DNA of 64,000 bases. Origin: Octopus sinensis. Its lineage: Eukaryota. Position 1 is the stretch's first letter. Each line of letters begins with the position of its first letter. This document shows positions 13,641 to 28,984 of this stretch, in pieces. The stretch spans positions 134,850,001-134,914,000 of the forward strand of contig NC_043000.1 in NCBI RefSeq assembly GCF_006345805.1, in the 5' to 3' direction. Made by a program: the position numbers and the translations under genes. The notes beneath the pieces were generated by a model, which worked only from the letters and a program-made list of their open reading frames with translations, searched no databases and had not been told where the DNA came from.

Positions 13641-15239
13641 AATGCCTGAATGGTTTTTTCCACAATGGAGTTGCCTGTTTCGTCTTCATTCCTTCTCAAT
13701 GTAGCTAATTTGATTTATAGTTGTTTATATGCATTTTTAATTTGCTGTCGCCTATCCCATACTATTTAGATAAATCTATTGACACATCTGCTTGCATGTA
13801 AATGGAAAAAAAAAGTCACAGTAATTTAAAGTGGGCAGTGAAAGGGATAATCAACAATGGGGAAAAAAAGGGGTTATCATATGGAAAAAAAATCATGCAT
13901 TCTATTGATTTAAATTGGTATAAATCCTTAAAAATGTTTTAGCCCAAAGGCCGCGGCCATGCTGGGGCACCACCACTGATATAAACAATTTTTAAAAAAC
14001 TTTTAATACAAGGGCATAATTTCAAGGAAGGAATTAATCTTAGAACTCATTTATTTGCTGTCTCTGAAAGTATGGAATTATTAAACCTTATTTTGTATTT
14101 AAAAAAAAAAAATTTCCCTAATTTTAAGAGTAAATAGTTTTGAATTAATTTTCTTTTGTATCTAAAATATTCAGTTATATAGATGTTTAATGATACTGAA
14201 CAGAATAATAGTAATTTCATAGTTAGGCACAAGACCAGTAATTTGGGGGAGGAGGCTGGTCTGTTTTAATTGGCCCTTTATTTTATCAATCCAAGACAAG
14301 CAAAGCTGACCTCAGCAGAATATGAACACAGAACAAAGATCACAAAGCATTTTGTTTGATGCTCTAATAATTCTGCTAACCCATCATCCATTTAATAATT
14401 TCTAATAATAAGTTTTGGAGTCGATTTGTTCAACTAAAGGTGGTGCTCCAGCATGGCTGAAGTCAAATGAATGAAGCATGTAAAAGAAAAGCGAATAATT
14501 CTTCTCCAATCACAATAATTTCTGTAGTATAGGAGTGGGAAACAGTTGCTTAAATAGAGTACTTGACTGGTACTTTATTGACCCTAAAAGGGGTGAAAGG
14601 CAAAGTCAACCTTAATGGGATTTGAACACAGAACGTAAAGAGATGGCATTTTGTCCGATGCTCTTATGATTCTGCCAATCTACCACCATTATCATATTGT
14701 CAAAATTTTACTATTATTGTGATTACATACATAGGAAATTAAAAGGATATTTTAGATTTATAAGAATCCAGTAAAAACTTTACCAAGCCATATAGAAGTT
14801 AAAACAAACTGATTTAGATTATTTAACTTTGATTTGAGTAATACTGTATCAAAGAAGCAGGTTCGTACTTGCAATTGAGGTTTTGCTTTGTCAACTGAGT
14901 TTAACTGAAATATCATCCTTCAGAAAACAAAATATTTCTGTGGAGTTCCATTCCAGGTCTGAGATTTTAGAATCAATAATGTACTATGATTGAGTACCTA
15001 ATAAACAAGTTCGGTGTCAATCAGTCAATGTCTTTTCTCTGCTACCTCACTTGTTACCGAAATGATTTCTGCTACTCTGTACTTGTTGAAGTTATGCCAT
15101 CCTCATCTTATGAACCAATTCCTCTACTTCTCATTATTCACTAGTGTCTTTTCTTGTCCAGATTTCTGCATTAAATACTTGACTCCACCACATTCTTTCC
15201 TTTCTATCTACTGAAAATAGCCAACAAAGCAAGTATTGT

Positions 15240-17314: not shown

Positions 17315-18274
17315 TTAGGTCATGTAACGAAAGGGAGTTTGTCCAGGATAAGGAATAGTATGCGAATAATTAGGATAAATGATACGGTAACTAATAAACC
17401 AACATATCACAGACACCATCGATGCGGCAACTTTCTCGGCAAGAGAATGGAACCGGTAAACACTGGTGATTAGCAACATAAATTCCCAAACAAGTGTAAA
17501 GAAAGTCAACATAATGACGGCCGCCTTAATATAAGGGGTTAACTTTTCGTTGGCATCCTTAGATAAATTAACTTCCTCAGAACTTACTTTCCGCATCTGT
17601 TGAACATCAGGATTCTGTAAAAGTTCGCGTAATCTCCTCCAGTCTTTGAAAACCCGACATTCTTCTACGATGGTTAACAAGTTATGTGTCAGTAAAAACA
17701 CATGGCCGGATACATCGAATGCAAGCCAAACTCTACCGGCTTCTTTGCATTTATGCCTAGTAGTCAGCTTAATTTCAGTGCAGATACCTGTCCTCTGAGC
17801 CATATGATCAAAAGCGGTTGTACAGACGTACCACCAAAAGGTGGCAATAGCTAAGCGCAATAAATGCTTTTTAACCAAATTCACATTGCACCCAGTGTAT
17901 ACGTAACTCGTTAGCGATATAAAAGCTGATAGCATCAGCACAGTCCATATCCAACCGAAATTAACGAAGAAGAGGTTCAATAAATTATCCCTCCGAGAGA
18001 AATACATTGGTGGTACAACAAACAAATCAGCTATCACAGAAGCAACGAAGACACCAACGACATAGATACCGATTTTAACGGAGATATCCATGAGCAAAAC
18101 TTTGCGACACAGCTTCATGACAACCATAAGTAGAAAATGTCCGACATGTATTGGCTGAGCTAAAACAGGCATCTTGCCACTGGTATTACTTGCTTTCCTC
18201 TGTGTGGGCAGTTTCTTAGGTGGTTTTCGACTCTGTATTTGAGAACTGAGGCTTTCTCCTTTTGGGACTGCCAT
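17315..18274 (-). CDS. FITM2: Fat storage-inducing transmembrane (FIT family) protein, FIT2-like acyl-CoA diphosphatase; single coding exon, 319 aa
   Basis: Intact ORF with about six hydrophobic segments. Motifs: YFSRRDNLLNLFFVNFGWIWT, the luminal TGIC...C...G..W loop, FDVSGHVFLL (first catalytic His) and LITSVYRFHSLAEKV (second His). The FIT family call is strong. FITM1/2 paralogy is vertebrate-specific, so the symbol is by closest similarity. Confidence 0.93.
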   Translation of the reverse strand: MAVPKGESLSSQIQSRKPPKKLPTQRKASNTSGKMPVLAQPIHVGHFLLMVVMKLCRKVLLMDISVKIGIYVVGVFVASVIADLFVVPPMYFSRRDNLLNLFFVNFGWIWTVLMLSAFISLTSYVYTGCNVNLVKKHLLRLAIATFWWYVCTTAFDHMAQRTGICTEIKLTTRHKCKEAGRVWLAFDVSGHVFLLTHNLLTIVEECRVFKDWRRLRELLQNPDVQQMRKVSSEEVNLSKDANEKLTPYIKAAVIMLTFFTLVWEFMLLITSVYRFHSLAEKVAASMVSVICWFISYRIIYPNYSHTIPYPGQTPFRYMT

Positions 18275-19451
18275 ATTTCGACGACTTTTTATTTTATTTT
18301 AAATAACCAGTCATATAAGAGTTATCTCCCCATGAAGTCTACTCACCCTTTTTCTACCTCCCAAATCTTGTAGTTTTCGTCTGCTTCACTATTAAAAACT
18401 TGCCTAAAATCTTTCATAACTATATAAATAACTATTTAAAGTGTGAAAAGCTTTAAATGGATCATTCGAGCTTGCTACAATTCTTTAAACCAGTAGTTTA
18501 TTAACAGTACGAAAACGGAAAATAGTGTGTAAGCACCCGATCCAGCTGATAAAACACATACACACTAAATCTACGCTAATTCATAACTAAAATTCTAGTT
18601 TTGGCAAAAATTCAGGGAATCTTTATTAGTCCCTGAAAATCCAGTATTCTTTTATGACAGTAAATATTGCGTAGCAACGCACAAGATCAAATTAACTCCC
18701 ACTATTTCTTTTTCTCGTTGGTATAACTATTAATTTTATGAATATTGATATTTCCCTGTGGAATAATCTGCTAATTTTATCACAGATATTAATGTTAAAC
18801 TTTTTCCTGTGAGAAGTTAGGGATAATCACAACCATAAATTTTATAAATATTGATACGTTATCGTAATCTTAAAACTTTGTTAGGGGAAAAAATTAATTT
18901 GATCAATAAAATTTGGTAGAAAACACAGTAAAAAGAAGAATAGGTGTTGTATATTCTCAATAAAGACAACCGCAACAGCGGTAAAAACCTAATTTTTTTT
19001 TTTTTTTCTTGTTCTCGTAGACATAAATATAAATTTTATGAATTGACACTTTATCATAGAGTAATCTCGAAATTTTATCAGGAAAAAAATTAGTTTAATC
19101 AATACGAAGGAAAACAACAGATAAACAAATTGTGCGCTGATTCTCGCACGTGGAATTATAGTTATCTCCAACACGGTAAAGTATTAACGTTGCTGCCAAG
19201 TTTCCGCGATGGGGTAAGCGCAACGCCCACTACTTCTGTTAAAAAATTAATTTTAACAACAGCTACATTAATACATAAATTTCGTTATTATAAATACTAA
19301 AAAACAAGTATTTTACATAACAGAGGGACTCTCTCTTTTTTCCTTCCTCTTTTTCTTTCTTCCTCTTTTTTTTCTCTTTTTTCTTTCTTCGCTCATGTTT
19401 GTGTTTTCTTCGGTTTTGGATTTGTATCTTAATGTAGTTTTGTATTATATA

Positions 19452-27567: not shown

Positions 27568-28481
27568 TTTTTTCCTCCGCCAAGGAAGTAGGTTATGTCT
27601 TCATCGGCGTTGGTTTGTCCGTCTGTCCGTCTGCGTGCAAAATAACTCAAAATGTTGTGAACGGTATTTTATGAAACTTGCAAGAATAGTTGGTAATGAC
27701 ACAAGGAACCTGATGATGAAATTTTGGTAGTGATCCGAGAATTTTTATGGATTCTTGAAGGATTTTTCATTTGTTATATTTACTTGACATGAAGTAGTTA
27801 CGTTCTTTGATTATCTCCCTTGAAAACACGTTCATCGTTTCCACATAACCTATGGTGGCGTTGCTGTTTCCAAAGTTTATTTTCATTTCTCTATTTGTAA
27901 TTTTACTCGCCTATCTATGGACTCTTGAGGGATGATTGATACTATACCGACCACAGAGGGATGTAGAGTAGGTAGGTATGTTTAGTTTCGTAAGTAGACA
28001 GATACCTCTTTTATCTTTGCCAAGGAATCATCTGACCATCGATTTTGGTGATTTCAATATGGATTTCCTTGATTCCCCTAACCATGAGATCTTGACAACT
28101 ATGAACCAGTTTGGGTTCGACCAACTAGTCCAAAAATCCACCACCGACTATGGAAGCCTGCTAGATCATGTTTACGTGAACCAGGATCGGCGTCGACAAG
28201 TCACCGTAACCGACTGTTACTTTTCCGACCATGATGTTGTGTGTGTATCACTCAAGTTTTAGGTAATTGTTGTTTAGTTTTAGTTGTATAGTGAAACTAG
28301 CTTGCTGTTGTCATTGATGTATTATAACTACTTCAGATGATTCCTGTTTTTAAAAACCCCGCCAAGGAGGTTATGTTCTTGCCGGCGTTGGTTTGGGAAA
28401 TTGGGCGATTTTCAGCATGCGTGTATATAGGTGGAAATGATCTGATTGGTAGAGGTCTGAGCTCTCCGAGTGCTTTTCTAG
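27568..28481 (+). mobile_element. Helentron-type non-autonomous element (HINE-like) retaining an AP-endonuclease C-terminal fragment
   Basis: T-rich start, then subTIR cctccgccaa, (gtcc/gtct) repeats, 3' ttggtagagg, hairpin-like gctctccgagtgc and ttttctagtt. Internal GDFNMD...TTDYGSLLDHVYVN...DCYFSDHDVV* ends in a stop right after the SDH motif. Confidence 0.75.
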
Positions 28482-28683
28482 TTCCTAATATTATGGAAGA
28501 ATACAAGGAGATATTTCCTATTTCGCCATAAATTTTTGGCATATTATTTCTGGTTTTTTTTTTGAACTAATGCACAGAAATATATTTAGATTAATATTCT
28601 TAAATGTACACAAACATATTTATGACCGTTTATTAGTTTTTATTTTTTAATTTTTTACTTTTATAATATATTTTTACTATATG

Positions 28684-28802
28684 GCTTACGGCCATATCAC
28701 GTTAAAAGCACCGGTTCTCGTCCGATCACCGAAGTTAAGCAACATCGAGCCTAGTTAGTACTTAGATGGGTGACCGCTTGGGAAACCTAGGGGCTGTAAG
28801 CA
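28684..28802 (+). rRNA. 5S rRNA, full-length solitary copy (gene, pseudogene or SINE head)
   Basis: 119 nt: gcttacggccatatcacg...tctcgtccgatcaccgaagttaagc...agttagtacttagatgggtgaccgcttgggaa...gctgtaagca. Helix I pairs (gcttacggc/gctgtaagc); T5 run at 28808-28812. Confidence 0.92.
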
Positions 28803-28984
28803 TTCAATTTTTAATGGCGGTGCCCCAGCATGGCCACAGCTTGTGAGCTGAAACTAAATAAATAAAAAAAATATATATATATATTTAAAAAAAATTATTG
28901 ACGCTTACGCTTACAAACAAACATATTTAATTTAGTCTATTCTTGGCTCTATAAATCCTCATGTAATTTTTGTCAGATATTTCC

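What the first reader, a model, noticed from the sequence alone, without database searches (positions are those of the whole stretch)
28684..28870. Full-length 5S rRNA joined to a retroposon 3' tail: candidate 5S-derived SINE (SINE3)
Seen: a 119-nt 5S copy, a T5 run, then ggcggtgccccagcatggccacagcttgtgagctgaaac and an A-rich end. This tail is the same module that ends tRNA-SINE family A (ggcggtgctccagcatggccgcagtcaaatgactgaaac), but with a different stem-loop sequence (cagc/gctg vs cagtc/gactg). The copy is solitary rather than in an array. Established: 5S-headed SINE3 elements with LINE-derived tails exist in some fish and insects. Inference: this may be a 5S-headed SINE family, or a 5S retrocopy formed by template switching. 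I cannot confirm novelty without a search.
Basis: partly seen in the sequence, partly recalled or inferred. Interest (0 to 1): 0.8.

Follow-up and report, generated by a model that had tools for sequence, protein, structure and literature searches.

The report
5S RNA hitchhiking on retroposon tails
This is a DNA copy of the cell's 5S ribosomal RNA precursor fused to the last 40-odd bases of a jumping gene; it is one of many separately made fusions in this genome, likely formed when the jumping gene's enzyme hops from one RNA onto another, and it shows how SINE-type elements could be born again and again.

Summary
The 5S copy, T5 run and tail are real, but the element is not a member of a self-copying SINE3 family. 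It is a chimeric retrocopy. Of 76 unselected dispersed 5S copies, 70 carry a retroposon in sense right behind them by motif (about 1 expected); the other 6 are also joined to repeats. Partners include several LINE tails, three SINE families joined at their own 5' ends, and cut LINEs. Of 76 5S-tail junctions, 75 differ. The linker is the 5S gene's own 3' trailer. U6 does the same (15 of 19 loci); dispersed U1 does not (0 of 11). The tail is the two-hairpin 3' end of an endonuclease/RT LINE with a sharp 5' cut point at the hairpin base (19 of 30 copies; 48 of 54 5S fusions keep 3-4 bases). Likely mechanism: end-to-end template jumping onto U-ending Pol III precursors. The kind is known (U6/L1, platypus U6/L2). 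The precursor trailers, range of partners and fixed junction were not found in ten searches. This scan earlier noted only an antisense 5S/L1 chimera in another genome.

The parts
28684..28802 (+). Full-length 5S rRNA copy; starts exactly at +1, no rDNA upstream flank
   Evidence: Rfam RF00001 106 bits; 4 differences from each of 6 array genes compared; upstream 45 nt no more like the array flank than its shuffles (202 of 500 reach the score)
28803..28812 (+). Linker TTCAA + T5, read as the 3' trailer and oligo-U end of a 5S precursor (inferred for this copy)
   Evidence: Sequence; array genes end in TTCCAT.., TCCC.. or T runs; for two other trailer types the trailer tracks the gene's 5S variant
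28813..28854 (+). 3' tail of an endonuclease/RT LINE, cut at the family's hot spot (AAT|GGCGG)
   Evidence: Same 39-mer type ends LINE copies; LINE frame has PF14529 and PF00078; cut point
28815..28836 (+). Predicted hairpin 1, nearly invariant across tail types; the junction sits at its base
   Evidence: Fold z = -2.6; 6 of 8 pairs never vary, so no covariation support
28837..28850 (+). Predicted hairpin 2 (CAGCT/AGCTG), differing between tail types
   Evidence: 2 of 5 pairs change on both sides among 9 distinct sequences
28855..28871 (+). A-rich terminal repeat of the LINE, running into a short (TA)n tract
   Evidence: Sequence; same ends on LINE copies
28678..28682 (+). TATAT, possible 5-bp target duplication (also found after the tail); not significant alone

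Best explanation
This is a one-off chimeric retrocopy: a 5S precursor RNA, trailer and U-run included, joined to the two-hairpin 3' end of a LINE, likely made when the LINE's reverse transcriptase jumped from one RNA onto the other during a single insertion. Shown: the tail belongs to an endonuclease/RT LINE; most copies of it stop at the base of hairpin 1; 5S, U6 and one tRNA precursor are joined at that point; the junctions differ from copy to copy. Inferred: the enzyme primes at an AT-rich target, copies the tail, stops at the hairpin base (or runs off a short RNA that starts there), and restarts on the U-ending 3' end of an abundant Pol III precursor. The same jump would follow the copying of a whole SINE RNA. 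Inferred: this copy is a dead end, because its T5 run would stop Pol III before the tail.
For: (1) 70 of 76 dispersed 5S copies, unselected for partner, have a sense partner motif within 40 nt; 0 antisense; about 1.2 expected. Five of the other 6 are followed by sequence matching other repeats; the sixth is an SA copy with a deletion, by eye. (2) Partners: tail types T1 22, T2 3, T3 3, other T 4, SINEs SA 19, SB 9, SC 3, tails R 6, Q 2, cut or unassigned 5; each of 8 trailer classes rides on 3 or more partner types. (3) 75 distinct linkers in 76 T-tail fusions, 5-21 nt long, 29 with T4 or more. (4) Two partnerless 5S genes on C5 carry the TAGCACATT and TCTTTCT trailers. Fusions with those linkers are nearest to those genes at 11 diagnostic sites: 23 of 25 (2 ties) and 5 of 5. 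(5) One insertion event: (AT)n on both flanks 15, left only 4, right only 9, neither 46 (p = 1.5e-6); short flanking repeat mean 4.15 against 3.33, 0 of 1000 permutations; 5 clean cases where the whole unit interrupts another repeat. (6) U6: 15 of 19 non-array loci fused to the same partners; U1: 0 of 11 dispersed loci (by eye). (7) SINE partners are joined where solo copies begin. RtcB ligation was much reduced with a 5' triphosphate or a 3'-OH (PMC6789731 passages), which favours jumping over ligation.
Against: No long target-site duplications: 2 of 63 at 7 bp or more, against 2.6 in permutations. Partner motifs were read by eye from these same loci, and the background count allowed 4 errors where the classifier allowed up to 5. 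Ageing inflates the count of distinct linkers. One identical T-tail linker pair exists (L002/L028), and SA fusions repeat linkers more often (27 distinct in 33). Only 5 of 144 loci gave a clean empty-site match. Genes for the commonest trailer (GTCACACATT, 74 matches) were not found; all were dispersed. The chemical step, jump or ligation, is not observed.
Confidence: 0.76

Rival explanations
1. Independent chimeras as above, but joined as RNA first: a ligase (RtcB or other) links the U-ending RNA to a cleaved tail RNA, and the product is then reverse transcribed.
For: Shown for human U6/L1 (PMC6789731 passages). A sharp 5' end at the hairpin base could be a cleavage site that leaves a 5'-OH. 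U6 is fused here too.
Against: Fusions also occur at the natural 5' end of three SINE families, which as Pol III transcripts should bear triphosphates (established knowledge). 5S and tRNA precursors with trailers should end in 3'-OH (established knowledge). Both ends were poor RtcB substrates.
Confidence: 0.14
2. A true SINE3: one or a few master copies of 5S+tail are transcribed from the internal promoter and copied by the LINE.
For: Short, interspersed, the same head and tail at 40 or more loci, 90-95% alike; 30 exact junction-pattern matches. The 5S part is near-intact. 47 of 76 linkers lack a T4 run, so read-through is possible.
Against: 75 of 76 junctions differ. 5S variants track real genes rather than a master. 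Several tail and terminal-repeat types occur. Tail copies without 5S are far more numerous: 1506 and 3020 exact matches. That meets the expectation Kojima gives for independent template switches (PMC4494074 passage).
Confidence: 0.07
3. Two steps: a 5S orphon landed first, and a tail or SINE later inserted into the T-run behind it.
For: These elements favour AT-rich targets, and long duplications around the whole unit are absent.
Against: 0 of 76 dispersed copies lack a partner and 0 have an antisense motif. The 5S starts at +1 or is 5'-cut and has no rDNA flank. The two outer flanks are correlated.
Confidence: 0.03

Closest known systems
U6 chimeras with L2, Mon-1, RTE and AnolisSINE2 in platypus and lizard (Doucet et al. 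2015, PMC4476161; passages read)
   Same: Pol III RNA 5' of a short LINE piece or a SINE; stringent non-L1 LINEs; only small duplications (1-9 bp); no solo retrocopies; ascribed to template switching.
   Different: There the rider is U6, mostly 5'-cut, in vertebrates. Here 5S precursors with gene-specific trailers ride, 45 of 76 starting within 4 nt of +1, in what is probably an invertebrate, with a fixed junction in the LINE.
Human U6/L1 and 5S/L1 chimeric insertions (PMC6789731 and PMC11838501; passages read)
   Same: Each copy is a separate event and does not spread further; U6 is full-length and in sense.
   Different: L1 junctions vary and have 6-19 bp duplications. Human 5S/L1 chimeras are often antisense and truncated; here the 5S is in sense and complete at its 3' end.
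Dictyostelium SINE-like 5S retropseudogene made by template jumping (Szafranski et al. 2004; title only, in a reference list; paper not held)
   Same: By its title: 5S joined to a LINE by template jumping and resembling a SINE.
   Different: By its title a single retropseudogene; details not seen.
SINE3 families (zebrafish SINE3, OS-SINE, MEG, Ped-1, 5S-Sauria, HaSE3; passages and table)
   Same: 5S head plus LINE-type tail or SINE body.
   Different: Treated there as families of uniform chimeric structure copied from masters; here junction and partner change with nearly every copy. None of the listed families is from a cephalopod.

Membership tests
SINE3 / SINE family (SINEBase criteria) | Short (<1 kb), interspersed, non-tandem | tested here: met
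   About 190 nt, distinct flanks on many contigs
SINE3 / SINE family | At least 60% identity to 5S over 60 nt | tested here: met
   115 of 119 identical to array genes
SINE3 / SINE family | At least 100 copies | tested here: inconclusive
   54 T1-tail fusions in hand; 22 in the first 727 Mb sampled extrapolate to about 80 with an exact core, a lower bound
SINE3 / SINE family | Common origin: shared junction and changes not found in the cellular gene | tested here: not met
   75 distinct linkers in 76; variants track real 5S genes
SINE3 / SINE family | Transcribed through head and tail from its own copies | not testable with these tools
   Only contigs of runs not on record as RNA were available; this copy has T5 before the tail
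Chimeric retrocopies (U6/LINE type) | Cellular small RNA 5' of a retroposon 3' part, same sense | tested here: met
   70 of 76 by sense motif, 0 antisense
Chimeric retrocopies (U6/LINE type) | Each copy an independent junction; partner far more common without the rider | tested here: met
Chimeric retrocopies (U6/LINE type) | Single insertion bounded by a target duplication | tested here: met
   Met for the set by short repeats, flank correlation and 5 empty sites; no long duplications; weak for this copy alone
5S rDNA array unit | Tandem unit with shared upstream element and no tail | tested here: not met
   Solitary; flank unlike the array
CR1/L2-group LINE (the tail donor) | RT phylogeny places it in the clade | not tested
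   Endonuclease and RT shown; Atlas and PDB gave no clade name; 'CR1-like' is recalled from motifs

The most novel reading that the evidence does not exclude
This LINE group has a built-in break point at the base of its 3' recognition hairpin. It makes a roughly 45-base mini-template that is welded, hundreds of separate times, to whichever U-ending Pol III precursor is at hand (5S, U6, pre-tRNA). The genome is thus a standing nursery of ready-made SINE candidates. The fixed tail length of real SINEs would then reflect enzyme mechanics rather than later trimming, and the fusions would record 5S gene variants that have left the arrays.
Probability: 0.45. Interest if true: 0.7.

Novelty: new variant of a known kind. 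Interest (0 to 1): 0.52.

Why it matters
How SINEs arise is usually inferred from finished families. Here many unsuccessful first-step fusions lie side by side with the SINEs that use the same tail, so what separates a failed fusion from a founder (for example a terminator left in the linker) can be counted. Because partners include whole SINE RNAs joined at their own 5' ends, the set lets template jumping be tested against RNA ligation. It also warns that repeat annotation could call such a set a SINE3 family by mistake.

Tried and rejected
Long target-duplication test: negative. Sequencing runs: no RNA holder listed. Four runs were laid, all contigs of uncertain kind; three contigs of X1 bridge a 5S-tail junction but may be DNA, so they are not used as evidence of expression. 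The first trailer-by-partner table merged two trailer classes through a loose pattern and was replaced. In one search the tail motif was found in only 9 of 20 fetched LINE stretches; the other 11 were not analysed. Of 19 empty-site hits among 144 loci, 14 were microsatellite, self or distant matches and were dropped by eye. Rfam on 19 solo-tail loci gave one relevant hit, a tRNA at L098; the rest were below cut-off, mostly microsatellite noise. ARAGORN found no tRNA gene in the window; SINE heads look tRNA-like only at a relaxed threshold. A ribozyme reading of the tail (hammerhead, HDV-like) was considered by eye against recalled consensus and dropped; Rfam found none in the window. Atlas and PDB did not name the LINE clade. 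The repeat finder was swamped by microsatellites. Look-ups of earlier findings by sequence and by place were empty.

Full report
Observation. A complete 5S rRNA lies at 28684-28802, followed by TTCAA, T5, AAT and a tail ending GAAAC at 28854, then an A-rich run. The tail start recurs 14 times in the window against none by chance. The genome is 2.72 Gb. From its size and repeats I guess a cephalopod, probably an octopus; this is recalled and untested.

First look. The element matched 40 scored loci over nearly its whole length, and a tight junction pattern matched 30 places. That looked like a family, but the stretch between 5S and tail differed at almost every locus.

The real genes. An exact 5S core matched 438 places; the first 100 were listed, 77 dispersed on C1-C4 and 23 in an array at C4:131.78-131.82 Mb. 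The 12 array copies printed share no tail and end in T-rich trailers. The window copy differs from array genes at 4 of 119 sites and has no array-like upstream flank.

What follows dispersed 5S copies. I held all 77 dispersed hits (76 distinct; one is a tandem duplicate). 70 of 76 have a partner motif in sense within 40 nt, none antisense within 70 nt, against about 1.2 expected from 249 kb of flank. The motifs were read from these loci and the background was counted slightly more strictly, so the expectation is rough. Five of the remaining six match other repeats, one of them the 5' part of a relative of the tail-donor LINE; the sixth is an SA SINE with a deletion, by eye. Partners are four kinds of two-hairpin tail, two other tails, three SINE families and cut elements, and each of eight trailer classes rides on three or more of them. 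In 36 further loci chosen by trailer, two partners are 5'-cut RT coding sequence.

The linker is the gene's own trailer. Among 76 pooled T-tail fusions, many found by searching with the element itself, 75 linkers are distinct, 5-21 nt long, and 29 hold T4 or more. Two partnerless 5S genes on C5 end in TAGCACATT and TCTTTCT trailers followed by T runs. Of 108 copies that could be scored (of 143), those with the TAGCAC linker are nearest that gene in 23 of 25 cases (2 ties), and those with the TCTTTCT linker in 5 of 5. The GTCACACATT trailer has 74 matches and the TAGCACATT trailer 40, none in an array.

One insertion. Long duplications are absent: 2 of 63 against 2.6 by permutation. But (AT)n tracts on the two outer flanks go together (15 both, 4 left, 9 right, 46 neither; p = 1.5e-6), and short flanking repeats exceed all 1000 permutations in 55 loci. 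In five loci (L009, L012, L028, L114, L118) the whole unit interrupts another repeat at one point; 14 other hits among 144 loci were dropped as microsatellite, self or distant matches. Small duplications are what Doucet et al. report for L2 chimeras.

The tail. One 39-mer form has 1506 exact copies. Some end a LINE whose longest frame seen is 982 aa with endonuclease and RT domains; its clade was not determined. It folds into two hairpins; hairpin 2 shows compensatory changes in a small alignment of related sequences, hairpin 1 is invariant. Using only hairpin 2 as bait (3020 matches), 19 of the first 30 copies start within -5 to +6 of GGCGG, none is cut deeper, none extends 7-70 nt, and 11 extend 71 nt or more. 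This sample overlaps that. Among 54 5S fusions with this tail type, 48 keep 3-4 LINE bases before GGCGG.

Other riders. Of 48 U6 matches, 26 rows lie outside an array; I examined 20 (19 distinct), and 15 are fused to the same tails or SINEs at the same points (by eye). One tRNA-Thr-like sequence with trailer and T run is fused to the tail (L098). Of 42 U1 matches, 14 of the 15 top hits printed look like genes; none of 11 dispersed loci is fused to these partners (by eye).

Mechanism. Solo SA, SB and SC copies lose homology 1-3 nt before their head motif, and the fusions join there. End-to-end template jumping, known for R2 RT (title seen in a reference list), fits better. The jump itself and the cause of the hot spot are inferred.

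Numbers. 76 exact-core copies in about 727 Mb extrapolate to about 280 genome-wide. The exact core caught only 5 of 26 GTCACACATT copies in the same region, so several hundred to about a thousand is likely.

Literature. I read passages only, from PMC4476161, PMC6789731, PMC11838501, PMC4494074, PMC7245038, PMC3531059, PMC10946416, PMC10886601, PMC4758252, PMC4824008, PMC6740152, PMC11481361 and PMC3956500; no supplements, which may list further 5S-headed elements. Szafranski 2004 was seen as a title only. Ten searches showed no report of 5S chimeras or SINE3 in cephalopods and none of a fixed junction at the tail hairpin, though none was aimed at truncation hot spots as such. Subscription journals, Repbase and Dfam were not covered. 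The scan's one related note, e1-7855460, concerns an antisense 5S/L1 chimera elsewhere.

Verdict. A real feature and a new variant of a known kind: it works like the U6/LINE chimeric retrocopies and meets their defining features. It looks like a SINE3 but fails the common-origin test. A small self-copying subset among terminator-free fusions is not excluded.

Noticed in passing
G000:C4:131.78-131.82 Mb (L100, L101, L224): 5S rDNA array with a unit of about 5 kb holding three 5S genes in mixed orientation and with different trailers.
   Followed up: partly
G000:C5:50223076-50224057 (L211, L258): Two partnerless 5S genes about 750 bp apart on opposite strands, with trailers not seen in the array stretches read; likely relics of an older 5S locus.
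   Followed up: partly
window 28683 and other fusions: 17 of 29 full-length fusions printed have G just before 5S +1, where array genes have T; possibly a non-templated base added at the end of the cDNA.
   Followed up: no
L070-L099, L260-L289; window 13955-13974 (-): About two thirds of the LINE's tail copies are tail-only inserts of about 45 nt plus terminal repeat; one tail-only copy of another type appears to lie in the window.
   Followed up: partly
L320-L329: Several dispersed U1 copies end directly in (ATT)n or (AT)n runs, three with a piece of the gene's 3' flank; this suggests a different mobilising element.
   Followed up: no
G000:C1:141.83-141.95 Mb and C15:28.98-29.18 Mb: Tandem array of a variant U6 gene, and a U1 gene cluster.
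   Followed up: no
window 28047-28262 (+): 71-codon fragment like the C-terminal end of an AP-type endonuclease, ending in a stop (Pfam PF03372 E = 0.003, below cut-off); a Helitron origin is a recalled guess.
   Followed up: partly
window 17318-18298 (-): Open frame with a FIT (fat storage-inducing transmembrane protein) domain, E = 4e-28.
   Followed up: no
L031 and L254/L255: A 5S fusion and a U6 fusion each duplicated in tandem together with their microsatellite flanks (557 and 326 bp apart).
   Followed up: no
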